NCBI GenBank assembly: GCA_037442825.1 | Contig: JBBIPN010000025.1 | Coordinates: forward strand, 1-16,445 | Source: Sulfurihydrogenibium sp. | GTDB taxonomy: Bacteria; Aquificota; Aquificia; Aquificales; Hydrogenothermaceae | DNA length: 16,445 nt | Reading direction: 5' to 3' | Shown: piece after piece, positions 1,627 to 15,853 of the stretch | How positions within the stretch are numbered: the stretch's first letter is position 1 | Layout of the letters: the number at the start of each line of letters is the position of its first letter | The notes under the pieces: generated by a model | Databases searched by the model: none | What the model was told of the DNA's origin: nothing | What the model saw: the letters and a program-made list of their open reading frames with translations, nothing else | Made by a program: the position numbers and the translations under genes

Positions 1627-1665
1627 TATTTTTATAAGTTAAAAAACCACTTTAAGGTGATAGCC

Positions 1666-3333
1666 ATGAAACATAAAAATGGGTTTTCTTTACTTGAAGT
1701 TGCAATTATACTTATTATAATAGGTGTTCTTTTAGCTGGAGGATTAACTCTTTTTAATATTCTTATAAAGAAGCAGCAACACCAAAAACTTGAAGAAAAG
1801 GTTAATGCTGTATATGAAGCTATTATTGGGTATGTTGCAGCTTATAAGAGATTCCCAGCATTATCTGACCTTGGTATAGATACTAAAGACTATGGTAGCA
1901 TAGATCTAGTATATAAATCTGCTACAACTACAAATATATGTAAAGATCCAGTAAGTGGTTTATTAACCATAACAGATAATAGAAACGCTACCAGTAGTAA
2001 TAGGGTAGCATTCATTGTATTTTCAAGGGGAGACAATAGATGTAATCAAACTGGTGATCCAAGTGGTACAAGTTTTACAATTGAAAATCCACAAAACAAT
2101 GTAGTATGTTTAGATAATACCCCAGGCAGTTCTTTACCCTATGAAGATATTGTTAAATACATAACAATAGATGATTTAAGAAATGCGGTATGTGGTAGTT
2201 TTAGTATTACAACCAATTCATTACCTGAAGGAGTAATGTATCAAAATTACAGTGCTACTATAGAAGTAACATATGGTATCATGCCTATAACATTTTCTAT
2301 AGAGTCTGGTAGTTTACCTTCAGGATTATCAATGAATTCTTCTGGTAATATTTCAGGAATACCAATACAAAGTGGCACCTTCAACTTTACTGTAAGGGCA
2401 ATAGATAGTATAAATAATGTAACTACAAAAACATTATCACTCACAATCCAACCAAACAAACCAAAGATAACTACTGAATACTTACCTTATGGACAGGTAA
2501 ACCAACCTTACTGTGCAGCTATTACCGTTAGTGGTGGAAAACCACCATATAGTTATACATCTTCATCCTTACCATCTGGATTAAGCTTTCAAACTAACTG
2601 TTCAGGTAGTTGTAATCCTGGTGGTCCTTGTATATATGGGACACCAACTGTAAGTGGTGGATTCCCAGTAACTATAACCGTTACAGATAACAATACAACT
2701 TATCCACAAAGTGACTCTAAAACATTAACATTAACAATAAATCCAGAAATTTCTGGTGGTGGCAGTGGTGGAGGGGGAGGAGGTGGTGGAGGAAGTGGTG
2801 GTGGTGGTAGTACACCAGCAACATGTACTCTAAGAGTTACAAACAATCCGATGCCGAATAATACAAGACCAAATTTAGAAATAACTATTTCAAATGGTCC
2901 TACTAACGTTTCATTTAGCCCTTCTACAGGTACTTGTGGTCCAATAACAAATGCAAATGGAATACTTTCCTGCCAACCTGACCCTATCACAAGAAATAAT
3001 ACGTATACAGCAAATTTAAGTAGTGGTAATAACTGCTCAGCGAAAGCATGTGTTATAAGGTATAGGGGATATAGAGTTTACAACGGAACAGGTTCTAGGA
3101 GAGATTTTAGAAGGCCGAATGGTGCATGTGTACGTATCAATAATGGCAGTGAGATTACCACAAGTACTATTCGATTAACTGTATCAAGTGGCCCAGTTAT
3201 TATGTACGATTCAAATAATAGATCATGTACAGGAGAGTTGGGAAGAGTAGACTTTTCATGGGCAGTATGTACTGATGATGATGCAGATAGTACTATAAAA
3301 TTCAATGCAGATGGAACTACTTCAGATAGATAA
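1666..3333 (+). CDS. Large prepilin-type N-methylation protein with two putative Ig (He_PIG-like) repeats, a Gly linker and a Cys-rich C-terminal domain
   Basis: Class III signal MKHKNG|FSLLE followed by a hydrophobic helix. AAGGTG RBS favours ATG 1666 over GTG 1657. Two repeats of the form 'ITT..LP.G...Q.Y.A.I.V..G..P.....SLPSGLS...I.G.P..SG.F..T....D......KTL.LTI'. Confidence 0.88.
   Translation: MKHKNGFSLLEVAIILIIIGVLLAGGLTLFNILIKKQQHQKLEEKVNAVYEAIIGYVAAYKRFPALSDLGIDTKDYGSIDLVYKSATTTNICKDPVSGLLTITDNRNATSSNRVAFIVFSRGDNRCNQTGDPSGTSFTIENPQNNVVCLDNTPGSSLPYEDIVKYITIDDLRNAVCGSFSITTNSLPEGVMYQNYSATIEVTYGIMPITFSIESGSLPSGLSMNSSGNISGIPIQSGTFNFTVRAIDSINNVTTKTLSLTIQPNKPKITTEYLPYGQVNQPYCAAITVSGGKPPYSYTSSSLPSGLSFQTNCSGSCNPGGPCIYGTPTVSGGFPVTITVTDNNTTYPQSDSKTLTLTINPEISGGGSGGGGGGGGGSGGGGSTPATCTLRVTNNPMPNNTRPNLEITISNGPTNVSFSPSTGTCGPITNANGILSCQPDPITRNNTYTANLSSGNNCSAKACVIRYRGYRVYNGTGSRRDFRRPNGACVRINNGSEITTSTIRLTVSSGPVIMYDSNNRSCTGELGRVDFSWAVCTDDDADSTIKFNADGTTSDR
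2755..2811 (+). repeat. Low-complexity (GGN)n run encoding the linker GGGSGGGGGGGGGSGGGGS
   Basis: Directly visible as ggtggtggcagtggtggagggggaggaggtggtggaggaagtggtggtggtggtagt, in frame with the pilin-like gene. Confidence 0.9.
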
Positions 3334-5123: not shown

Positions 5124-6066
5124 TTGAAAGTTTTATAGCTTCTATAAGTGAGGAAGGGTCAGCAATATTTTTACCTGCTATATCATAAGCTGTCCCATGG
5201 TCTGGTGAAGTTCTTATAAATGGTAGTCCTAATGTTATATTTATAGCTTTTCTAAAACATAGCATCTTTAACGGTATTAACCCTTGATCATGATACATTG
5301 CAATATATACATCATAATTTTTATAGTTGTTGAAAGCTGTATCTGGTGATAAAGGTCCTATTACGTTTATACCTTCTTCTTTTAGTTTGTTTAAAGCTGG
5401 TTTTATTATTTTCTCTTCTTCATTTCCTATATTTCCATTGTCAGAAGCATGAGGATTTAATCCTAATACAGCTATTTTTGGATTTGAAATACTAAATTTT
5501 TCTCCCAACTCTTTAACTAAAAGTTTTATTTTTTTTAATATCTTTTCTTGGGTAATACTTTTTGGTACATTTTTTATTGGTATATGTGTTGTTATTAATG
5601 CGACTTTCATTTTTTTACACATTAAGACCATTACATAATCTTTTGTATTTGATATATCTGCTAAATAATCTGTATGTCCTGCATAGGGAAAACCACTTTC
5701 CATAATCCACTGTTTTGAAATGGGAAGTGTAACTAAAGCATCTAATTTTTTATCTATTATGTCTTTTACTGCATTTTCTAAAAAAATGATAGATGCTTTT
5801 CCACTTTCTACTGATGGTTTACCAAACTTAAAATCTTTATTAGATAAATTTATAAAATAGATACCTGCCCTTTTTGCATCTTCAACGTTATAAATTTTTC
5901 TATATTCTATATCTATACTTGTTAAATCTTTTGAATTATTTAATGTTTTCTCACAACCGTATATAATGTAAGAAACATTTTTTTTAGGAATTTTTTTTAA
6001 TGCTTTTATAAGTATCTCACCATTGATACCTGTAGGGTCTCCTAAGGATATACCTACCTTTACCAA
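5074..6066 (-). CDS. pdxA: 4-hydroxythreonine-4-phosphate dehydrogenase
   Basis: Motifs [35 protein letters not shown] and [24 protein letters not shown]. The TTG start overlaps the dsrH stop. Confidence 0.96.
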
Positions 6067-6302
6067 ACAACCACCTTATTTGCTTTTTCTATAATATTTA
6101 AAATATCTTCATAATCCAAAAGTTTATTTTCTTTAATTTTAATATTCCTTGCAACTACATCTTCTTTACAAGCATACCAGTTTGATGTTGAAGGTTGTCT
6201 AATTACACCATCTTGTATAAGTATAAGAATATCATTTTCTTCTATCAGGTCAAGAATTGGAAAATCTGCAGGTTTTTTTATTAGAAATACAGTATTTACC
6301 AT
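6060..6302 (-). CDS. dsrH: DsrH/TusB-like sulfur relay subunit
   Basis: 'D.LILIQDGV', 'EDVVARN' and 'LDYE....I.....VVVW' are typical of TusB/DsrH. It follows the DsrE- and DsrF-like genes. Confidence 0.8.
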
Positions 6303-6646
6303 GTTATAACAACCTCAGCAGATTTTATAATATCACAAACTTCATCTTTTGTTTTAATATGTATATCAACAGGTAATTCTTTTAACTTGTTTATTCCTCT
6401 CTCACTTAATGATTCTTTCTCTACAATTATTTTAGCGTTTAACATTCCCAAAGCTTCTAAAGATTTGTCTGATGATGGTACCCCTATCATTTGAGGTTTC
6501 CAATCTGTAAGGGTAAATACTCCATCCTTTACAAAAATAACATTTACGTTATGATCCATAGCCATTCCAACAGCTTGTCTTAAAGCTTCAAATGTTTTCC
6601 ATCCAAATGGATTTGATTTTATTAAAGTAACTACATTTTTTTTCAC
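6296..6646 (-). CDS. dsrF: DsrF/TusC-like sulfur relay subunit
   Basis: 'SNPFG...FEALR', 'VIFVKDGVFTL', 'ESLSERGI' and C-terminal 'VVITW'. GTG start with AGGTG RBS. Confidence 0.78.
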   Translation of the reverse strand: MKKNVVTLIKSNPFGWKTFEALRQAVGMAMDHNVNVIFVKDGVFTLTDWKPQMIGVPSSDKSLEALGMLNAKIIVEKESLSERGINKLKELPVDIHIKTKDEVCDIIKSAEVVITW

Positions 6647-6658
6647 TTTATCACCTAT

Positions 6659-6961
6659 CTAAGATAGATTTATTACTTTATCACTTTCTGAAATCAATTT
6701 AGACAATCCATACATACTACTACTTTCTGCAAATGTTATATTTTCTATTTTTCTTTGGTTTGCATTGTGGGCACAGTAATGGATTTTAACACCTTCTTCT
6801 GATAACTTTTTTACTTCATCGTGCAAAAGACAGTAAACACCGTTTGCCATAAAAAATACAGAGACTTTATCATTTCTTTTTATACCAGCTCTTGCAAACT
6901 TTAGCATTGTATTAAAATCAAAAGAGTATGGATTACTTGCCATTATAATAAGTAGTTTCAT
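6659..6961 (-). CDS. dsrE: DsrE/TusD-like sulfurtransferase subunit (short, 100 aa)
   Basis: 'IIMASNPYS', 'VSVFFMANGVY', active-site-like 'YCAHNANQR' and 'LSKLISESDKVI'. The likely start is ATG 6961, which forms an ATGA overlap with the tusA stop, rather than 6988. Confidence 0.8.
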   Translation of the reverse strand: MKLLIIMASNPYSFDFNTMLKFARAGIKRNDKVSVFFMANGVYCLLHDEVKKLSEEGVKIHYCAHNANQRKIENITFAESSSMYGLSKLISESDKVINLS

Positions 6962-7191
6962 CTTACTTTCCTTACTATTACTTCCCAAAGATTATCACCT
7001 ATTTGGTTTACAGATATAACCTCTTGCCCTTCCATCTGCATACTTTTTGGAACATTCTCTACAGAAGGTTTATAATCTATTATCACTTTTAAAACTTCTC
7101 CTTTTTCCATCTGCTCAATTATAAGCTTACTTTTTACAAATGTAAATGGGCAAACTTCTCCTCTTAAATCAAGCTCTCTGTTTATCTCCAT
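6958..7191 (-). CDS. tusA: TusA/SirA-family sulfur carrier protein
   Basis: 77 aa with LDLRGEVCPF (a CPxP variant), 'GEVLKVIID..PS.ENVP' and a terminal 'VIVRK'. Confidence 0.9.
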   Translation of the reverse strand: MEINRELDLRGEVCPFTFVKSKLIIEQMEKGEVLKVIIDYKPSVENVPKSMQMEGQEVISVNQIGDNLWEVIVRKVR

Positions 7192-7200
7192 TTTTTTACC

Positions 7201-8019
7201 TCAAAAATGTATTTCACAAGCTTGGTCATACTCTATAAGATCTTTAATGGTTGGGTTTTCACCACAAAGATTACATTTTTTATCTTTTCTCAATTTAACA
7301 GTTCTAAACTCTGTTTTTAAAGCATCAAATACTAAAAGCTTACCAATAAGAGGTTCACCTATTTCAAGTATAAGTTTTAACGCCTCATTTGCTTGTAAGG
7401 TACCCATAATACCACCTACTACACCAAGTAAACCAGCTTCTTGACAACTTGGTACAAGTCCTGGAGGTGGTGGTTCTGGAAATAGACATCTATAACATGG
7501 AGATATTTCTTTATTTTTATAATCAAAGGTTGTAAGTTGTCCTTCAAATCTTAATATTGCTGCAGATACTAAAGGTTTCCCAAGCATATAACATGCATCG
7601 TTAACTAAAAATCTTGTAGGAAAGTTATCTGAGCCATCTAAAACAATATCAAAATCTTTTATTATATCTAAAACATTTGATTTATCTATCTTTTGATTAT
7701 ATGTAATAACATTTACATCTGGATTCAAAGATTCAACGGTCATTTTAGCAGATTCAACTTTTGGTATTCCTACCCTTGAAGTATTATGTAAAATCTGTCT
7801 CTGTAAGTTTGAAAAGTCAACTACGTCAAAATCTACAATTCCAATGGTACCTACACCAGCAGCAGCTAAGTAGTAAATTGAAGGAGAACCAAGACCACCA
7901 GCACCTATAACCAATACTTTTGATTCGAGAAGTTTTTTCTGTCCTATTCCACCAACTTCAGGTAAAATTATATGCCTACTGTATCTTTTAATCTGCTCTT
8001 CTGTAAATTGAAAACTCAT
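7201..8019 (-). CDS. moeB: MoeB/ThiF-family E1-like adenylyltransferase (no C-terminal rhodanese domain)
   Basis: RYSRHIIL, GAGGLG, SNLQRQ, DGSDNFPTR, CYRC and CNLC Zn motifs, and VPSCQEAG. GAGGTG RBS favours ATG 8019 over GTG 8028. Confidence 0.92.
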   Translation of the reverse strand: MSFQFTEEQIKRYSRHIILPEVGGIGQKKLLESKVLVIGAGGLGSPSIYYLAAAGVGTIGIVDFDVVDFSNLQRQILHNTSRVGIPKVESAKMTVESLNPDVNVITYNQKIDKSNVLDIIKDFDIVLDGSDNFPTRFLVNDACYMLGKPLVSAAILRFEGQLTTFDYKNKEISPCYRCLFPEPPPPGLVPSCQEAGLLGVVGGIMGTLQANEALKLILEIGEPLIGKLLVFDALKTEFRTVKLRKDKKCNLCGENPTIKDLIEYDQACEIHF

Positions 8020-8048
8020 ATACTTCACCTCGTTTAAATTATATAAAA

Positions 8049-8087: not shown

Positions 8088-8864
8088 ATGATTAGTGTAG
8101 GTAATCTTAAAACATTTGGTTTAATTGATATATTCCAAGTTATTAGGGAAAATAGAAAAGATTGTATTCTTACAGTAGAAAACAATGGTTCAGTTTATGC
8201 AATTTACTTCTATAAAGGAAATCCAATATATGTAAGGAAAGTTAAAAGAAGTTTTTTTATCTATATGGATATAGATTTTGAATCTGCTCTGAAAAGGGAT
8301 AAAATATCAAAATATGACTTATTTAATGTTTTAGCTACACGATTACCAATGATTTTAAAATTAAAGGAAGGAAAATTTTCCATAACATCTGGTTTTATAA
8401 AATATCCAAGTGATATTCAAACAGTTGTAGAAATAGAAAGACTTATTATCCTCTTATCAAGAAATTTAATGCCTAAGGAAGTAGATAGAAAAATCACAGA
8501 TTTAGATATCATCTTTGAAAAAACGGAAGAATCAGAAAATATAGATAAATTTGGTTTAAACAATAGAGAAAAAGAAATTTTAAATCTAATCGATGGTAAA
8601 AATAAAGTTAGTGGTATTATAACAAAGATACATTTTGATATGATTTTAAGAGAATATAATACTACAGATTTGTCTGATGAAAATATATTACAAAAGCTGT
8701 ATAGTGAGAGTGAACTTCATGTTAAAAGAGCTTTATACGGATTTCTAGCAAGTGGATTGATTAGAAAGCAAAAAACCTTAAAGAAATCAGAAAATATTTT
8801 TGAAAAGATGTTAAGTTACTTAGAAACAAAACCTTTAATAGATACTATTAAAGAAAAAGTATAG
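8088..8864 (+). CDS. DUF4388 (PatA_N-like) domain protein with a C-terminal winged-helix-like region
   Basis: The N-terminus 'GNLKTFGLIDIFQVI...K...LTV......IYF.KG.PIY' and 'EGKFS' fit DUF4388. 'L..RE.EIL.LIDGK..V..I...V.RALY.F...GLI' is the usual companion HTH-like region. Confidence 0.72.
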   Translation: MISVGNLKTFGLIDIFQVIRENRKDCILTVENNGSVYAIYFYKGNPIYVRKVKRSFFIYMDIDFESALKRDKISKYDLFNVLATRLPMILKLKEGKFSITSGFIKYPSDIQTVVEIERLIILLSRNLMPKEVDRKITDLDIIFEKTEESENIDKFGLNNREKEILNLIDGKNKVSGIITKIHFDMILREYNTTDLSDENILQKLYSESELHVKRALYGFLASGLIRKQKTLKKSENIFEKMLSYLETKPLIDTIKEKV

Positions 8865-8874
8865 AGGTGAAGTT

Positions 8875-10212
8875 ATGACATTAAGTTATACTGAAAGTAT
8901 AGCAAAAAAAGCAAAACAAACTACAAGAGCACTTTCTTCTCTTACAACAAAAGTAAAAAATGATGCATTGTTAAGAACTGCAGAACTTTTAATAGAAAGA
9001 AAAGAAGAGATATTAAGAGAAAATAGAAAAGATTTAGAATTAGCTGAAAAGAAAGGTTATTCAAAAGCTTTACTTGACAGGTTGGCCCTTGATGATAAAA
9101 GAATAAATCAGATGGTTCAAGTGTTAAAAGATGTTGCAGCATTGCCAGATCCAGTAGGTGAAATTATAAATATGTGGACAAGGCCAAATGGATTAAAAGT
9201 TGGTCAGATGAGAGTACCTCTTGGTGTTATCCTTATTATATATGAGGCAAGACCAAACGTAACAATAGAAGCTGCATCTTTATGTATGAAATCATCAAAT
9301 GCTGTTATCTTAAAAGGTGGTAGTGAAACAATCAATTCAAATAGAATTTTAGTAGACATTATAAAACAAGCTTGCAGAGAAACGTGTTTTCCAGAGGATG
9401 CAGTTCAGTTTGTAGATACTACAGATAGAGAAGTTGTAAATCAACTTTTACAGCTTGAAGGACTTATAGACGTTGCTATTCCAAGAGGTGGTGAAAGTCT
9501 AATAAGAGCAGTTGCAGAAAATGCTAAAATACCAGTTATAAAACATTACAAAGGTGTATGTAATCTTTATATCGATAATGAAGCAGATTTGGAAAAAGCT
9601 TTAAATATAGCCTACAATGCAAAAGTTCAAAGACCTTCAGTATGTAATGCTATAGAAAACCTTGTTGTTCATAAAGATATAGCAGATAAATTTTTACCAG
9701 AAATTGCATACTACTATGGAAAAGCTGGTGTAGAGATGAGATGTGATGATTATAGTTATAACCTCTTGATAAATCATCCTAAAGCAAAAGATACAGAAAT
9801 CGTAGAAGTAAAAGAAGAAGATTACTATGAAGAATTTTTAGATTTAATAATAGCAGTTAAAGTAGTTGAAAATATTGATGAAGCTATAGATTTTATAGAA
9901 AAGTATGGTTCTCATCACTCAGATGCAATTGTAACGGAAAACTATACAAAAGGAATGAAATTTATACAGGAAGTAGATAGTGCAGCTGTGTATATAAATG
10001 CATCAACAAGATTTACAGATGGAAATGAGTTTGGTCTTGGTGCGGAGATGGGAATATCAACAGATAAGATACATGCAAGGGGACCAATGGCATTAAAAGA
10101 ACTTACGATACCTAAATTTATCGTATTTGGAGACGGTCAACTTAGAGAAAATGTTGGTATACCAAAAGATGAAAAGATAGAGATAAACAAAGAAGCTTGT
10201 GAATTAAAATGA
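8875..10212 (+). CDS. proA: Gamma-glutamyl phosphate reductase
   Basis: RVPLGVILIIYEARPNVT, IPRGGESLI, RPSVCNAIE (catalytic Cys) and NASTRFTDGNEFGLGAEMGISTDKIHARGPM. Confidence 0.98.
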   Translation: MTLSYTESIAKKAKQTTRALSSLTTKVKNDALLRTAELLIERKEEILRENRKDLELAEKKGYSKALLDRLALDDKRINQMVQVLKDVAALPDPVGEIINMWTRPNGLKVGQMRVPLGVILIIYEARPNVTIEAASLCMKSSNAVILKGGSETINSNRILVDIIKQACRETCFPEDAVQFVDTTDREVVNQLLQLEGLIDVAIPRGGESLIRAVAENAKIPVIKHYKGVCNLYIDNEADLEKALNIAYNAKVQRPSVCNAIENLVVHKDIADKFLPEIAYYYGKAGVEMRCDDYSYNLLINHPKAKDTEIVEVKEEDYYEEFLDLIIAVKVVENIDEAIDFIEKYGSHHSDAIVTENYTKGMKFIQEVDSAAVYINASTRFTDGNEFGLGAEMGISTDKIHARGPMALKELTIPKFIVFGDGQLRENVGIPKDEKIEINKEACELK

Positions 10213-10997
10213 AAACAATTACAGAATTTTTAAAAGCAAAACACGAAAAAAGAAAAATTACAGTAATATCTACCTATGACTATTGGACTGCTAAACTATG
10301 TGAAGAAGCTGCTATAGATGCCATATTGGTCGGTGATTCACTTTCTATGGTCGTTCAAGGTAACGACTCTACTTTACCTGTTACATTAGAAGAGATGATA
10401 TACCATACTAAAGCAGTTAAAAAAGGTGCTCCAAACACTTTTGTTATAACTGATATGCCATTTTTAACCTACCATACATCTCTGGAAGAAACAGTCAGAA
10501 ACTGTGGAAAAGTTTTAAAGGAGTCTAAAGCTAATGCTGTAAAGTTGGAAGGTGGAGAGCAGATAGCAGATACTATCTATAAATTAACATCCTTAGGAAT
10601 ACCTGTTATGGGACATTTAGGATTAACACCACAGTATATAAATATAATAGGTGGCTACAAAGTTCAAGGAAAAACAGAAGATAGTAGAGAAAAAATAAAA
10701 AAAGATGCTAAGATACTTCAAGAAGCTGGCTGTTTTTCTATAGTACTTGAAGCTGTTCCATCAAATTTAGCTAAAGAAATTTCTGAAAGTTTAAATATAC
10801 CTACCATAGGTATAGGTGCTGGCAAGTATACAGATGGGCAGGTTTTAGTTTTCCATGACCTTATAGGTATCCTTGAAAAAACACCTAAATTTGTAAAGAG
10901 ATACTTAGAAGCTGGAAAACTTATAAAAGATGCTTTATCTACATTTAACAATGAGGTAAAGAATGGGCATTTTCCCTCAGACGAATATCAATATTAG
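10209..10997 (+). CDS. panB: 3-methyl-2-oxobutanoate hydroxymethyltransferase
   Basis: ILVGDSL, DMPF, AVKLEGG, GHLGLTPQ and PTIGIGAG...DGQVLV.HD. ATGA overlap with proA. Confidence 0.98.
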   Translation: MKTITEFLKAKHEKRKITVISTYDYWTAKLCEEAAIDAILVGDSLSMVVQGNDSTLPVTLEEMIYHTKAVKKGAPNTFVITDMPFLTYHTSLEETVRNCGKVLKESKANAVKLEGGEQIADTIYKLTSLGIPVMGHLGLTPQYINIIGGYKVQGKTEDSREKIKKDAKILQEAGCFSIVLEAVPSNLAKEISESLNIPTIGIGAGKYTDGQVLVFHDLIGILEKTPKFVKRYLEAGKLIKDALSTFNNEVKNGHFPSDEYQY

Positions 10998-11583
10998 CAA
11001 CTCTCTAAATGATGTAATAGATATTATTAAAAATGGTGGTTTAGTAGTTGCTAGAACCGATACAATCTACGGAATTATTGGAAATGCTTTAAATAAAGAA
11101 ACTGTTGAAAAAATATACCAAATAAAAGGAAGAGAAGAAGATAAACCATTTATTATTTTAATTCCATCAAGTAAGATGTTAGAAATATTCAATGTTAGAG
11201 AAAATCAAACAGCAGAAAAATTACTAAATTTAAAAGGTATAACAGTTATATTTGATATAGAAGATCAAGAAGGTAAATGGTATTACTTACATAGAGGAAT
11301 AAAAAGTTTAGCTTTTAGAATACCAGATGATATAGTATTTTTGAAATTTTTAGAAAATTTAAATTTACCAGTTGTTGCTCCCAGTGCTAATCCATCTGGA
11401 CTACAACCAGCAGAAGATATAAATCAAGCTATTGAATATTTTTACGATAAGATAAATTTATATGTTGATAGTGGGAAAGTTGTTGAAAATATTCCTTCTA
11501 CAGTTGTAAAAGTCGAAAATGGAAAGATAAAAATATTAAGAAAAGGAAAAAAAGAGTTGTTTAATGGAAATAAAAACACATAA
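10963..11583 (+). CDS. tsaC: L-threonylcarbamoyladenylate synthase (YrdC/TsaC type, no Sua5 C-domain)
   Basis: TDTIYG, IYQIKGR...KP, AFRIP, APSANPSG and PSTVV...ILRKG. GAGGT RBS precedes ATG 10963. Confidence 0.93.
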   Translation: MGIFPQTNINISNSLNDVIDIIKNGGLVVARTDTIYGIIGNALNKETVEKIYQIKGREEDKPFIILIPSSKMLEIFNVRENQTAEKLLNLKGITVIFDIEDQEGKWYYLHRGIKSLAFRIPDDIVFLKFLENLNLPVVAPSANPSGLQPAEDINQAIEYFYDKINLYVDSGKVVENIPSTVVKVENGKIKILRKGKKELFNGNKNT

Positions 11584-11953
11584 AAGTATTGATGAAATGC
11601 TATCTGGTAAAGTTGTAGATTTGAAAGAAGGTGAATCTGCAACAGTAGTATTACAGGCAAATGATAAGATGATAGCAGATAAAAAAGGGCTTATACATGG
11701 TGGTTTTATATTTTCAGCAGCAGATTACTGTGCTATGGTTACAGTAAACCATCCAAACGTCGTTCTTGCCTCTGCTGAAGTCAAATTTTTACAACCTTTT
11801 AAAATATACGACGTTGGTATATTTAAAAGTAAAGTGTTGGATACAAAAGGAAGATGGACCACTATATTAGTAGAAGGTTTTAAAGGAGAAGAAAAGTTTT
11901 TTGAAGGAACATTTAGATGTTATACCTCTGAAAAACATGTTTTAGAAAAATGA
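11564..11953 (+). CDS. PaaI-like hotdog-fold thioesterase
   Basis: 129 aa with 'GLIHGGFIFSAADY' (HGG...D active-site helix), 'EVKFL.P' and terminal beta strands 'FEGTF'. Confidence 0.85.
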   Translation: MEIKTHKSIDEMLSGKVVDLKEGESATVVLQANDKMIADKKGLIHGGFIFSAADYCAMVTVNHPNVVLASAEVKFLQPFKIYDVGIFKSKVLDTKGRWTTILVEGFKGEEKFFEGTFRCYTSEKHVLEK

Positions 11954-12687
11954 AATATTTCAGTTTAAAAATGAGAGCATCTTTAGAAGATAAACATATT
12001 TCAGGTGCAGAAAGGATTGTAGAAGAAGAAAATTTAGAAAAAACCGTATTAGAGCTTTTAAATAGACCTAATATATATGATTTTTTAAACATAAAAGTTG
12101 AAAGACTAAAAGAGATTGAGTATCTAGAAAAATCCTTAGATATAAAAAGTTATACATTTAATGATTATATAGAAGCTAACGATTTTGCTATCTCTTTACT
12201 GGAAAGTATTGGAATACAAAAGGAAATTTCTAAAAAGTACATATGGTTATTACACGATGTAACTGGCGAGTATGGAAACAATATGAGAGGAGCAATGATA
12301 GTCAATTTAAATGGTGATAGATTAGAATTAGATAAATCAAGGGGAGTAAGAACTACAAACGTTGATTTTTTAAACAGAAAAGATATAGAAAAAAGATTAT
12401 TAGAAAAAGGCTACTCTTTAAGGACAGTAGATGCTTTAGCTTTAGCTACAAAAAATTTAAACCATCCAGATATAGTTGCAGAATACTGTATATCAGATCA
12501 ATCAGATTACACTACTGGCTATGTAGCTACAAAAGGTTTATACAATAGAATTTTTCCACTAAAAAAATATGGTAATAAAAAAGGTGGTAGAATATACTTT
12601 GTAAAAAATAACGTAAATATTGCCCAGCTTTACGACTATTTACAAAATAAAAGTTTATTAATTAAAGATTTAGGGAAGATAGGATGA
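11950..12687 (+). CDS. bioW: 6-carboxyhexanoate--CoA ligase (pimeloyl-CoA synthetase)
   Basis: 'SLKMRAS...HISGAERIV', 'MRGA', 'RLE....RGVR', 'DALALATK', 'AEYCISD..DYTTGYVA' and 'GGRIYFV' are BioW signatures. Confidence 0.93.
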   Translation: MKYFSLKMRASLEDKHISGAERIVEEENLEKTVLELLNRPNIYDFLNIKVERLKEIEYLEKSLDIKSYTFNDYIEANDFAISLLESIGIQKEISKKYIWLLHDVTGEYGNNMRGAMIVNLNGDRLELDKSRGVRTTNVDFLNRKDIEKRLLEKGYSLRTVDALALATKNLNHPDIVAEYCISDQSDYTTGYVATKGLYNRIFPLKKYGNKKGGRIYFVKNNVNIAQLYDYLQNKSLLIKDLGKIG

Positions 12688-13331
12688 AATATATATTCAT
12701 ACATGGATGGGGTTTTAGTAAAGAGATATTCAAAGATTACTTTTATATAGATAACAGCGATTTTTTAGATTTACCATTTCATGGAGAGATGTCAGATTTT
12801 GAAGATAAAAATATATTAGAAAATTATGTAAATTACGTATCATCTAAAATACATAAAGATACCACATTAATAGGTTGGTCATTGGGAGCTACTGTAAGTT
12901 TACTTACAACACTTAAAAATGAAAATGTAAAAAAATTAGTTTTGATAGGTTTTAGTCCAAAATTTAACGATGAAAAACTTGGCAGTAGTCCAGTTTACAT
13001 AAAAGCATTTTTAAATAATTTAAATAGAGATTTTTCCTCTACCCTTTCTAATTTTAGAAAAGTTGCTATAGATAAAGAGATAAAAAACATACCAAAACCA
13101 AAAGAAGGATCAAAATCATTACTTAAAGAATTTATAAACCTTGATTTAACAGACACATTAACTAAAATAAATATTCCAACTATAATATTACACGGAATAA
13201 ACGATAAAATAGTAAACAAAGAAGCAGCATTTTTTAGCCATAAAAAAATTAAAGATAGTCAGCTTTTTTTATTAGATTCCCATCACGGACCATTTTTAGA
13301 AAGGGATATTTTTGAATTCATTAATGAATAA
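12684..13331 (+). CDS. bioH: BioH-like alpha/beta hydrolase (pimeloyl-ACP methyl ester esterase)
   Basis: FIHGWG oxyanion motif, DLPFHG, GWSLG nucleophile elbow, HG..D and a catalytic His in HHGPF. It lies directly upstream of bioC. Confidence 0.82.
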   Translation: MKYIFIHGWGFSKEIFKDYFYIDNSDFLDLPFHGEMSDFEDKNILENYVNYVSSKIHKDTTLIGWSLGATVSLLTTLKNENVKKLVLIGFSPKFNDEKLGSSPVYIKAFLNNLNRDFSSTLSNFRKVAIDKEIKNIPKPKEGSKSLLKEFINLDLTDTLTKINIPTIILHGINDKIVNKEAAFFSHKKIKDSQLFLLDSHHGPFLERDIFEFINE

Positions 13332-14022
13332 AAACCGTATAATTCTGTCATTTTCAAGGTCGGCTTTTTATTATGAAAAAAATGCAGATATACAAAAACA
13401 GACAGCTTTAGATTTGTCTAATTTTGCAAAAAATATTGATGGTTTAGGTATAGACCTTGGTTGTGGGACAGGATTTTTATCTGATATCCTAAAGAAAAAT
13501 ATTATAGGTGTAGATATATCAAAAAATATGATAGAAATTTACAAGCAGAAAAATAATCTTGCTACTGTTTGCGATATAGAAAATTTACCTTTTAAAGACA
13601 ACTCTTTTGATTTTGCTATTTCTAATTTTAGTTTACATTGGACAGATTTAAATAAATCTATCAGAGAGATTCATAGAGTTTTAAAAAAAGATAGTAAACT
13701 TTATTTTTGCATGCCTGTAGAAGGAAGTTTAAATATAGTTAAAAAAGTTTTAGGTTATGATAATTTTAACTTTTTAGATGAATATTCAGTATTAGAAATT
13801 ACAAGAAAGTATCTTAAGATAGAAAATTATTTTTCTAAAGACTATATCAAAACATTTAATAGTGGTATTGAGTTTTTAAATCATCTTCATTATACTGGTT
13901 CTGCTATAGGAAAGGAAGGTTTAACCTTTGGAGAGAAAAAAAGAATCTATGAGAAGTTTAAAGGTTTAAAGGGAAATATTAAGCTTAATTTTAAAGTTAT
14001 GTTTGTACGTGGAAAGAAATAA
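13324..14022 (+). CDS. bioC: Malonyl-ACP O-methyltransferase
   Basis: N-terminal 'FSRSA..Y...A.IQ', SAM motif IDLGCGTG, 'DIENLPF....FD..ISN..LHW' and 'L.HL..TG'. ATG 13324 overlaps the bioH stop and is preferred over TTG 13312. Confidence 0.88.
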   Translation: MNKNRIILSFSRSAFYYEKNADIQKQTALDLSNFAKNIDGLGIDLGCGTGFLSDILKKNIIGVDISKNMIEIYKQKNNLATVCDIENLPFKDNSFDFAISNFSLHWTDLNKSIREIHRVLKKDSKLYFCMPVEGSLNIVKKVLGYDNFNFLDEYSVLEITRKYLKIENYFSKDYIKTFNSGIEFLNHLHYTGSAIGKEGLTFGEKKRIYEKFKGLKGNIKLNFKVMFVRGKK

Positions 14023-14112: not shown

Positions 14113-14595
14113 TTGGAATATATTTATATTGATGAAGAGTTAAAAAGTAAAATAGATAAGTTATTAAAAACTTTCTTTACAGAAGACCAGGTGATTATTC
14201 AATCATTACATCTAATATATTCAAAGTATAGAGATATCACTTTAGAACATTTAGAAGAGTTGTCAAACTACTTAAATGTACCTTTAAATAAAATTGAAGG
14301 TATCGTTTCTTTTTATGATATGTTTAGAGTTAAAAGAAATGCAAAACACCATATTAGAGTATGTAAAAATCTACCTTGTCATATAATGGGATGTAAAAAA
14401 CTTATTGATATAATAGAAAAGCTTACTGGAGAAGTTAGAAATGAAGAAAGTAAAAATGGTTTGTTTTATATAGAAACAGTAGAATGTATAGGAGCTTGTA
14501 GTATAGCACCTGCTTTTATGGTAGATGATGATTTATACAATGGAACTAATATAACAGAGGAAGTTTTAGATGAAATCCTATCCAAATATACCTAA
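14113..14595 (+). CDS. nuoE: NADH-quinone oxidoreductase subunit E (2Fe-2S)
   Basis: 'VSFYDMF', CKNLPC and ECIGAC..AP [2Fe-2S] ligands. TTG start with AAGGT RBS; overlaps nuoF. Confidence 0.92.
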   Translation: MEYIYIDEELKSKIDKLLKTFFTEDQVIIQSLHLIYSKYRDITLEHLEELSNYLNVPLNKIEGIVSFYDMFRVKRNAKHHIRVCKNLPCHIMGCKKLIDIIEKLTGEVRNEESKNGLFYIETVECIGACSIAPAFMVDDDLYNGTNITEEVLDEILSKYT

Positions 14596-15853
14596 CTTTT
14601 ATACGTATAGTGATGTCAACTTACTTTTAAGAAGAGCTAAAGAAAACAGAACAACATCCATAGATGAGTACATAAACACAGGTGGTTATTCTGCTTTAAA
14701 AAAAGCATTACAAAAATTTACCCCTGAAGAGATTATAATTTTAGCAGAAGAAAGCACTTTAAGAGGTAGAGGTGGAGCAGGTTTCCCTACAGGTAGAAAA
14801 TGGAGATTTGCAGTCTCAAATCCTAAACCAAGATATCTAATATGTAATGCAGATGAATCTGAACCAGGAACATTTAAAGATAGAATAATCATAGAGAGAG
14901 ATCCACATCTATTAATAGAAGGGATGGTAATCTCTGCTTATGCTATAGGTGCAGAATTTGGATTTATATATATAAGAGGCGAATACCCAGCTGGCTACAT
15001 GATATTAGAAAATGCAATAGAAGAGGCAAGACAAAAAGGGTTTTTAGGTAAAAATATACTTGGAACAGATTTTTCTTTTGATATACTTGTGTATAGAGGA
15101 GCTGGAGCTTATATATGTGGAGAAGAAACAGCACTGATAGAAAGTTTAGAAGGGAAAAGAGGACACCCAAGACTAAAACCACCATACCCAGTAGTAGAAG
15201 GCTTATTTGGTAAACCAACAGTTGTAAACAATGTAGAAACTCTCGCAAATATTCCTATAATCGTTACCTATGAAAATTATTATATGAATATAGGACCTGC
15301 TGGATACTACGGACCTAAACTTTTCCCAATTAGTGGAAAAGTAAACAAACCTGGTGTATACGAAAGTACAATGGATATTACATTAAGAGAGCTTATAGAA
15401 AAAGCTGGTGGAATGAAAGACGGCAAAAAATTTAAAGCTGTTTTTTCTGGAGCTTTAGGTGTATACTCTGAAAAAGACCTTGATGTACCTATGGACTATT
15501 CACCAAAAGGTTTTGGAGGAACAGGGACTACTATAGTTTTATCAGAAGATGACTGTATTATAGATAGTTTGATAGTGATAGTAGAATTTTTTCACCATGA
15601 AAGTTGTGGAAAGTGTACACCTTGTAGAGTTGGTACATATGAACTTCTAAATGTATTAAAAAAGTTTCAAGAAAAAAAAGCTACAATAAAAGATTTAGAA
15701 TATTTAAAATTTCTTGGTAAAAATATACCTGTTGGTTCTATATGTGGACTTGGTTTTTCAGCACCAAATGCATTAATGGATGCCATTAGAAAATTTGAAC
15801 ATGAATTTATAAAACATATAAATGGAATATGCCCTGCAAAAGTTTGTTTCTAA
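14570..15853 (+). CDS. nuoF: NADH-quinone oxidoreductase subunit F (FMN, 4Fe-4S)
   Basis: LRGRGGAGFPTG, CNADESEPGTFKDR, GAGAYICGEETAL, NNVET and HESCGKCTPCRVG...SICGLG. The N-terminus MKSYP.IP resembles Aquifex NuoF. Confidence 0.95.
   Translation: MKSYPNIPNFYTYSDVNLLLRRAKENRTTSIDEYINTGGYSALKKALQKFTPEEIIILAEESTLRGRGGAGFPTGRKWRFAVSNPKPRYLICNADESEPGTFKDRIIIERDPHLLIEGMVISAYAIGAEFGFIYIRGEYPAGYMILENAIEEARQKGFLGKNILGTDFSFDILVYRGAGAYICGEETALIESLEGKRGHPRLKPPYPVVEGLFGKPTVVNNVETLANIPIIVTYENYYMNIGPAGYYGPKLFPISGKVNKPGVYESTMDITLRELIEKAGGMKDGKKFKAVFSGALGVYSEKDLDVPMDYSPKGFGGTGTTIVLSEDDCIIDSLIVIVEFFHHESCGKCTPCRVGTYELLNVLKKFQEKKATIKDLEYLKFLGKNIPVGSICGLGFSAPNALMDAIRKFEHEFIKHINGICPAKVCF

What the first reader, a model, noticed from the sequence alone, without database searches (positions are those of the whole stretch)
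11564..14022. Thioesterase-bioW-bioH-bioC: candidate hybrid pimelate pathway joining two normally alternative biotin-precursor routes
Seen: four overlapping, translationally coupled genes (hotdog thioesterase, BioW, BioH-like esterase, BioC). Established: BioC-BioH makes pimeloyl-ACP through fatty-acid synthesis (E. coli type), whereas BioW activates free pimelate to pimeloyl-CoA (Bacillus/Aquifex type). The two are usually treated as alternatives, and the enzyme that releases free pimelate for BioW is poorly defined. Inference: BioC/FAS/BioH makes pimeloyl-ACP, the hotdog thioesterase releases pimelate (or its methyl ester), and BioW makes pimeloyl-CoA for a CoA-specific BioF. This would assign a function to an orphan thioesterase.
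Basis: partly seen in the sequence, partly recalled or inferred. Interest (0 to 1): 0.72.

Follow-up and report, generated by a model that had tools for sequence, protein, structure and literature searches.

The report
Hybrid BioC-BioH-BioW biotin precursor route
This hot-spring-type bacterium keeps genes from two supposedly alternative ways of making biotin's seven-carbon precursor side by side, and they likely work in series because its next enzyme is predicted to accept only the CoA form; the small thioesterase gene in front is probably a bystander.

Summary
The four overlapping genes are real: PH1136-like hotdog, BioW, BioH-like esterase, BioC-like methyltransferase. They end an eight-gene run that also holds proA, panB and tsaC.

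The hybrid route is supported. BioW, BioH-like and BioC-like genes occur in 108, 111 and 110 of 114 good Aquificota genomes. A second phylum (Desulfuromonadia) has bioW two kilobases from bioH in 29 of 31 bioW genomes, as bioW-bioF-bioH-bioC where read. BioF sequence tracks BioW: 26 of 26 BioW-less Desulfuromonadia BioFs share E. coli's basic 122/130/149; BioW-bearing ones, this organism's included, resemble CoA-only Bacillus BioF. The Aquificota genome lacking bioW has the E. coli-like pattern. The marker has counterexamples and is untested.

The thioesterase assignment is not supported. It lies next to bioW in 13 of 111 genomes (two genera, probably one event), in 0 of 80 bioW loci sampled broadly, and was not found in 29 bioW-bearing Aquificota.

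Co-occurrence was noted in 2004 as two separate pathways; the pimelate source for BioW is called unknown in a 2024 review. New variant; interest 0.55.

The parts
11564..11953 (+). Single-domain hotdog protein of the PH1136/Cj0977/FapR-like group; probable thioesterase of unknown substrate, probably a passenger in the operon
   Evidence: D39, H45-G46-G47 and D54 invariant in 40 sequences; AlphaFold model pLDDT 97.7 with one long helix 46-61 and five long strands; linkage counts
11950..12687 (+). BioW, pimeloyl-CoA synthetase
   Evidence: Over three curated cut-offs; E 1.2e-62 to 5tv5; Y187, Y198, R200 match the carboxylate-binding Tyr188/Tyr200/Arg202 of A. aeolicus BioW named in PMC9544090
12684..13331 (+). 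Short BioH-like serine esterase; triad S66-D174-H201 intact; lacks the cap helix that carries E. coli R155/R159
13324..14022 (+). BioC-like SAM methyltransferase (longest ORF starts 13312; ATG at 13324 preferred)
   Evidence: E. coli BioC tblastn E 1.3e-16 over 197 aa; BioC structure 8x8i matched over residues 1-210, E 9.7e-8
8088..11583 (+). Upstream members of the same run of abutting genes, unrelated to biotin: DUF4388 (8088-8864), proA-like aldehyde dehydrogenase (8875-10212), panB (10209-10997), tsaC/sua5 (10963-11583)
   Evidence: the proA name is read from the sequence, Pfam gave Aldedh

Best explanation
bioW, a bioH-like and a bioC-like gene sit together here and likely form one serial pathway: BioC, fatty-acid synthesis and BioH would make pimeloyl-ACP, a general thioesterase would release pimelate, and BioW would re-activate it as pimeloyl-CoA for a BioF predicted to be CoA-only. 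Shown: gene identities, intact catalytic residues, co-occurrence, operon order in two phyla, and the BioF sequence pattern. Established elsewhere: BioC/BioH chemistry in E. coli, BioW chemistry, CoA-only B. subtilis BioF. Inferred: every substrate in this organism, the BioF carrier preference, and the releasing enzyme. I commit to a housekeeping thioesterase for release; the best-distributed candidate is the YbgC-type 4HBT_2 protein at G000:C10:8425-8820. The hotdog at 11564 is likely a passenger that may contribute unspecifically.
For: (1) BioW 108, BioH-like 111, BioC-like 110 of 114 genomes at least 90% complete; BioF 99 of 99; bioA, bioB and bioD pieces are in this genome. (2) bioW within 2 kb of bioH in 36 of 45 family-f1 genomes with both positions listed. 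(3) Desulfuromonadia sample: BioW 31 of 91, BioH-like 77 of 91; all 31 BioW genomes have BioH, 29 within 3 kb, order bioW-bioF-bioH-bioC. (4) BioF, E. coli numbering: basic at 122/130/149 in E. coli and 26/26/26 of 26 BioW-less Desulfuromonadia; in 0/1/0 of 22 BioW-bearing ones, 2/0/0 of 30 Aquificota, 7/1/0 of 19 Bacillota bioW-locus BioFs. Basic at 141 in 0 of 26 against 22 of 22, 30 of 30, 19 of 19. All 54 BioFs in 80 broadly sampled bioW loci have K/R141 (they include the 19). (5) 15 of 16 further Aquificota BioFs have K/R141; the 16th, G149, has K130/L141/R149, BioC beside another hydrolase-like ORF, and no BioW. (6) E. coli BioF favours pimeloyl-ACP and B. subtilis BioF takes only pimeloyl-CoA (PMC7645780 passages; PMC12704756 passages). 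(7) BioH cap regions of BioW-bearing groups stay net basic, so BioH probably still meets ACP. (8) 4HBT_2 thioesterase in 62 of 64 genomes.
Against: R141 is ancestral: CoA-using relatives that look like KBL carry it, mostly with R149 too, so only the combination is informative. The pattern is one-way: five BioFs in bio clusters (L342, L343, L371, L399, L418) and two Burkholderiales BioFs (L489, L490) have the CoA-like pattern without BioW, though none has a clear BioH. Structures 5vnx and 3wy7/7s5m have A130/R141; 3wy7 is recalled as M. smegmatis, which uses BioC/BioH1-3 (PMC9302846), so a BioF without the E. coli pattern may still work downstream of BioH. Rhodanobacter BioF with true BioH is mixed (K130, K141, R149). 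Each group is a clade or nearly so (quick tree), so independent events are few. That 122/130/149 contact ACP is inferred, with only unverified recall of the 8dle complex. BioH and BioC are below their NCBIfam cut-offs. The 4HBT_2 family is equally present in BioW-less genomes and 11 of 14 controls, so its distribution only fails to exclude it.
Confidence: 0.5

Rival explanations
1. Parallel routes: BioC/BioH deliver pimeloyl-ACP straight to a BioF that accepts both carriers, and BioW only salvages outside pimelate or recaptures pimelate lost from ACP.
For: This is the published reading for Desulfuromonas (PMC545781 passage). BioFs without the E. coli pattern exist in BioW-less organisms. No dedicated thioesterase travels with bioW (0 hotdog-family hits in 80 loci; none recognised by eye among clustered neighbours).
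Against: BioW is kept in 108 of 114 good genomes of a small-genome phylum, which is unlike an optional salvage gene (inference). Within one class, BioW absence and the E. coli-like BioF go together in 26 of 26 and BioW presence with the other pattern in 22 of 22; G149 repeats this.
Confidence: 0.23
2. One reading: the hybrid route holds and the hotdog at 11564 is the enzyme that releases pimelate (or its methyl ester) from ACP, at least in this two-genus clade.
For: Hotdog-bioW adjacency in 9 of 9 genus-g1 and 4 of 4 genus-g6 genomes. In G133, G135 and G138 the upstream panB-tsaC block is gone while the hotdog stays on bioW. Putative catalytic D39/H45-G46-G47/D54 intact. The linked proteins share K/R118 and Y120 (12 of 12, against K in 3 and Y in 8 of 90). 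Likeness to FapR's domain, which binds malonyl thioesters (recalled).
Against: Unlinked in 98 of 111 genomes, with varied neighbours (mtnA, prfA and others). The 12 linked sequences form one weakly supported clade, so one event can explain both linkage and shared residues. Not found in 29 bioW-bearing Aquificota, including single-contig G034 that has bioW, bioH and bioC. Orthologue in 6 of 30 bioW-bearing Desulfuromonadia. Present in 5 archaeal and 5 bacterial genomes where BioW was not found (completeness not given).
Confidence: 0.13
3. Hybrid route with a different order or enzyme: the thioester is cut first and the short BioH demethylates free monomethyl pimelate, or this BioH cuts both ester and thioester itself.
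For: Aquificota BioH lacks the helix bearing E. coli R155/R159 in 22 of 22 sequences and has mostly N/K at 138 and N at 142; these four arginines are the ACP contacts named in PMC9302846. bioH is the hydrolase that does travel with bioW. An archaeal BioH-complementing esterase has acyl-CoA thioesterase activity (PMC6138646 passage).
Against: BioH of BioW-bearing and BioW-less Desulfuromonadia have similar cap length and charge; Aquificota BioH keeps basic residues at 126 and 144 (22 of 22 each) and mostly at 134.
Confidence: 0.12

Closest known systems
E. coli BioC-BioH pathway (PMC7645780, PMC9302846; passages read)
   Same: BioC-like methyltransferase and BioH-like Ser-Asp-His esterase, adjacent here
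   Different: E. coli has no BioW and its BioF favours pimeloyl-ACP; here BioH is 215 aa with a shortened cap, and BioF lacks E. coli's K122/R130/R149
B. subtilis BioW pathway (PMC7645780, PMC11089781; passages read)
   Same: BioW with the pimelate-binding Tyr/Tyr/Arg; BioF motif like the Bacillus type (R141, no R130/R149)
   Different: In B. subtilis the pimelate source is unresolved and BioI is dispensable; here bioC and bioH offer a source
Desulfuromonas bioW plus bioC-bioH (Rodionov 2004, PMC545781; passages read)
   Same: The same three genes in one genome; here shown as bioW-bioF-bioH-bioC in relatives
   Different: The paper reads them as two different pathways; no hotdog gene in those operons
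PH1136 (1ixl), Cj0977, HP0420 homologue, FapR effector domain
   Same: Hotdog fold and HGG...D motif; E 1.8e-30 to PH1136
   Different: No role in biotin synthesis known to me; substrates of this group not established in what I could read

Membership tests
BioW (PF03744, TIGR01204) | Scores over curated cut-offs | tested here: met
   244 vs 25; 205.5 vs 193.55; 264.5 vs 226
BioW (PF03744, TIGR01204) | Tyr/Tyr/Arg that bind the distal carboxylate | tested here: met
   Y187, Y198, R200
BioH (TIGR01738) | Score over equivalog cut-off | tested here: not met
   75.9 vs 206.95; still the best model; 0 of 91 Desulfuromonadia reach it either
BioH (TIGR01738) | Ser-Asp-His triad and HGW/GWSLG motifs | tested here: met
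   S66, D174, H201; 22 of 22 Aquificota sequences
BioH (TIGR01738) | ACP-contacting R138/R142/R155/R159 | tested here: not met
   Helix with 155/159 deleted; other basic residues conserved
BioH (TIGR01738) | Methyl-pimeloyl-ACP esterase activity | not testable with these tools
   Needs assay or complementation
BioC (TIGR02072) | Score over equivalog cut-off | tested here: not met
   106.9 vs 184.95; best of 33 models and full length
BioC (TIGR02072) | Adjacent to a pimeloyl-ester hydrolase gene | tested here: met
   Directly after bioH here and in loci L033, L034, L039, L041-L043, L045, L047, L477, L478, L480
   13 of 111; 5 of 83; 0 of 80
   Needs assay
PaaI/4HBT hotdog thioesterases | Hotdog fold with HGG...D motif (motif recalled) | tested here: met
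   PF03061 over cut-off; below PaaI and FapR equivalog cut-offs
CoA-only BioF (B. subtilis type) | No activity with pimeloyl-ACP | tested here: inconclusive
   Sequence pattern only, with counterexamples

The most novel reading that the evidence does not exclude
Nearly all Aquificota and the BioW-bearing Desulfuromonadia run an obligatory serial route, BioC-FAS-BioH-thioesterase-BioW-BioF; BioF's choice of carrier can be read from positions 130, 141 and 149; and in this clade the PH1136-like hotdog has been recruited as the long-missing pimeloyl-ACP thioesterase. The serial route without the hotdog claim I put near 0.7 in all its forms; the probability given here is for the full statement.
Probability: 0.13. 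Interest if true: 0.78.

Novelty: new variant of a known kind. Interest (0 to 1): 0.55.

Why it matters
A 2024 review states that the pathway supplying pimelic acid to BioW remains unknown in B. subtilis or any other strain (PMC11089781). A serial BioC/BioH-to-BioW route would answer this for two lineages, one of them the phylum of the A. aeolicus BioW used for structures. It would also change the textbook split into alternative routes and give a simple sequence marker for BioF carrier choice. All of it can be tested with existing E. coli bio mutants.

Tried and rejected
Overlap as proof of shared function: rejected. A second hotdog or dedicated thioesterase beside bioW elsewhere: none found (neighbours were clustered and read by eye, not scanned against Pfam). 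The 119-aa ORF between bioW and bioH in four genera as the missing enzyme: no Pfam family over cut-off, only hypothetical Atlas clusters, absent from this genome. Loss of basic charge in BioH caps of BioW-bearing groups: not seen. R149 alone as a marker: rejected, KBL-like proteins have it. A promoter or BirA site before the hotdog: promoter-like sites 30 against 37.3 in shuffles; no BirA-like palindrome upstream of the cluster at up to 3 mismatches. A blind test on Elizabethkingia, Chryseobacterium indologenes and Chlamydia BioFs of known preference was not achieved: only an unassayed Chryseobacterium BioF was reached (L507: E130, Q141, K149). No fold comparison was obtained for the hotdog model. 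No complex prediction was run. Earlier scan notes: none on this locus or idea; one search gave 8 notes on other pimelate routes, not used.
Full report
Observation. The four ORFs are present at the stated coordinates and overlap by 4, 4 and 20 nt. BioW passes three curated cut-offs and keeps the three residues that bind pimelate's far carboxylate. The esterase's best model is bioH and the methyltransferase's is BioC, both below cut-off; the esterase triad is intact. The first ORF is a hotdog protein closest to PH1136, then Cj0977, an HP0420 homologue and FapR, with a confident model. The run of abutting genes begins further upstream with DUF4388, proA, panB and tsaC, and about a third of same-strand neighbours in this genome overlap (308 of 912, rough ORF call), so overlap alone says little. 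The closest named loci with the same gene order are Sulfurihydrogenibium and Hydrogenothermaceae records, so the window is inferred to be from Aquificota. bioF, bioA, bioB and bioD pieces lie on other contigs.

The hotdog. It was found in 127 of 178 genomes of the phylum. Of 111 genomes with both positions printed, it is within 5 kb of bioW in 13, all in genera g1 and g6 (16 hotdog genomes had no printed BioW position, as the 15 weakest matches were not listed and some lack BioW). The 12 distinct linked sequences form one clade among 102, with weak support 0.47. Elsewhere its neighbours vary. I gave 30 of the 51 genomes without a hit to a 40-sequence profile: three weak hits (E 6.5e-6 to 1.1e-4, against about 1e-44 for true orthologues) and no orthologue; 29 of these 30 have BioW, among them single-contig G034 with bioW, bioH and bioC. 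Among 83 hotdog loci from many phyla (best 80 of 583 plus three; some cut short by contig ends) bioW was seen in 5, all from this lineage. Ten hotdog-bearing genomes outside the phylum gave no BioW. Among 80 bioW loci with flanks (of 120 returned) none held the family. In its favour: the hotdog stays with bioW in three genomes where the upstream block was replaced, and linked proteins share K/R118 and Y120; both can come from one ancestor.

The BioW-BioH-BioC set. These are in 158, 165 and 168 of 178 genomes, and 108, 111 and 110 of 114 good ones. In family f1, bioW is within 2 kb of bioH in 36 of 45; in other families they are apart, with bioH-bioC often paired. The broad bioW sample showed bioW-bioF-bioH-bioC in Geoalkalibacter and two Deltaproteobacteria records. 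In 91 sampled genomes of that class, 31 have BioW and 77 a BioH-like gene; all 31 have BioH, 29 within 3 kb. The hotdog orthologue is in 6 of 30 of these and 0 of 14 BioW-less ones.

BioF. I aligned E. coli BioF with 26 BioFs from BioW-less and 22 from BioW-bearing Desulfuromonadia (of 46 and 31 such genomes with BioH; L275 and L288 left out because bioW or bioF was outside the locus), 30 from family f1, and 19 from Bacillota bioW loci. Positions 122, 130 and 149 are basic in E. coli and all 26 BioW-less proteins and almost never in the others (122 is basic in 7 of 19 Bacillota); position 141 is the reverse. All 54 BioFs in the 80 bioW loci have K/R141, one has R130. Of 16 more Aquificota BioFs, 15 have K/R141; G149, which lacks BioW and this BioH and has BioC with another hydrolase-like ORF, has K130/L141/R149. 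Three unrelated family members with K130 and no R141 also lack BioW, two of them near bioC. Since E. coli BioF favours ACP and B. subtilis BioF takes only CoA, I infer this organism's BioF (E122, E130, R141, I149) prefers CoA. Limits: R141 is the ancestral state; seven CoA-like BioFs occur without BioW, none with a clear BioH; 5vnx and 3wy7/7s5m have the CoA-like pattern, and 3wy7 is recalled as M. smegmatis, a BioC/BioH organism; a Rhodanobacter BioF is mixed; the groups are clades on a quick tree whose careful search did not finish, so few independent events are counted.

Mechanism. Most likely (0.5): BioC methylates malonyl-ACP, fatty-acid synthesis elongates it, BioH removes the methyl group, a general thioesterase frees pimelate, BioW makes pimeloyl-CoA, BioF uses it. 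A YbgC-type thioesterase like aq_1494 is in this genome and in 62 of 64 genomes tested, but also in BioW-less ones. Rivals: parallel routes with BioW as salvage (0.23); the window's hotdog as the link in this clade (0.13); BioH cutting the thioester or acting on the free half-ester (0.12).

Literature. Passages only were read of PMC545781, PMC9544090, PMC7645780, PMC9302846, PMC11089781, PMC6138646, PMC12704756 and PMC12915131; no supplements were opened, and those of the BioE papers hold BioF alignments that may bear on the marker. PMC545781 notes both bioC-bioH and bioW in Desulfuromonas as two different pathways. PMC11089781 calls the pimelic acid source for BioW unknown. I found no statement of a serial route or of this BioF marker in searches, but the library lacks most subscription papers; Manandhar and Cronan 2018 and Estrada 2017 were not held, and Rodionov 2002, Manandhar and Cronan 2017 and the paper behind 8dle were not seen. 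Any of them may already say part of this.

Verdict. Observation confirmed; interpretation partly supported. Interest 0.55.

Noticed in passing
L033:4842-5201 (also L034:4750-5109, L036:4659-5024, L037:2917-3279): A ~120-aa ORF of no Pfam family sits between bioW and bioH in four genera of family f1, overlapping both; Atlas clusters are all hypothetical; absent from this genome.
   Followed up: partly
L048:2787-4157: In G001 the hotdog is fused in frame to an IF-2B-family (MtnA-like) protein, 456 aa; in four same-genus loci (L017, L021, L031, L032) the two are adjacent separate ORFs, so the fusion may be a frameshift or sequencing error.
   Followed up: partly
L147:6197-7108 and 14 other Nitrospirota loci: bioW is directly followed by a ~300-aa ORF in 15 loci (looks like a YegS/diacylglycerol-kinase family protein by recall, not scanned), often after bioB; no BioH found in four Nitrospirota genomes, so their pimelate source is open.
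   Followed up: partly
L138, L140, L146, L148, L149, L157, L163, L164 and others: BioW-BioF fusions of about 630-690 aa are common across Bacillota, Desulfovibrio, Kiritimatiellia and Verrucomicrobia records, beyond the described Corynebacterium fusion.
   Followed up: no
L191:5797-7514: Two tandem bioW-like ORFs in an Armatimonadetes biotin operon.
   Followed up: no
L489, L490: Two Burkholderiales genomes have bioAFDB with CoA-like BioF but no BioW and no clear BioH; their pimeloyl source is unexplained here.
   Followed up: partly
L050:798-3493: FeGP-cofactor genes (HcgF, a ThiF-family gene, Fibrillarin_2) converge on the bioH-like gene in G163.
   Followed up: no
window 1657-3333: 558-aa pilin-like ORF with repeated Ig-like units and a glycine-rich linker, after PilB/PilC-like genes; read by eye, not scanned.
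   Followed up: no
window 6060-8028: Three small DsrE/F/H-like ORFs and a MoeB/ThiF-like ORF on the minus strand; read by eye.
   Followed up: no
window 14113-15853: A stand-alone NuoE/NuoF-like pair follows bioC after 90 bp (PF01257 for the first; the second read by eye).
   Followed up: no
G000:C111 and C113: E. coli BioD matches the same 108-residue part on two contigs, a duplicate or an assembly break.
   Followed up: no
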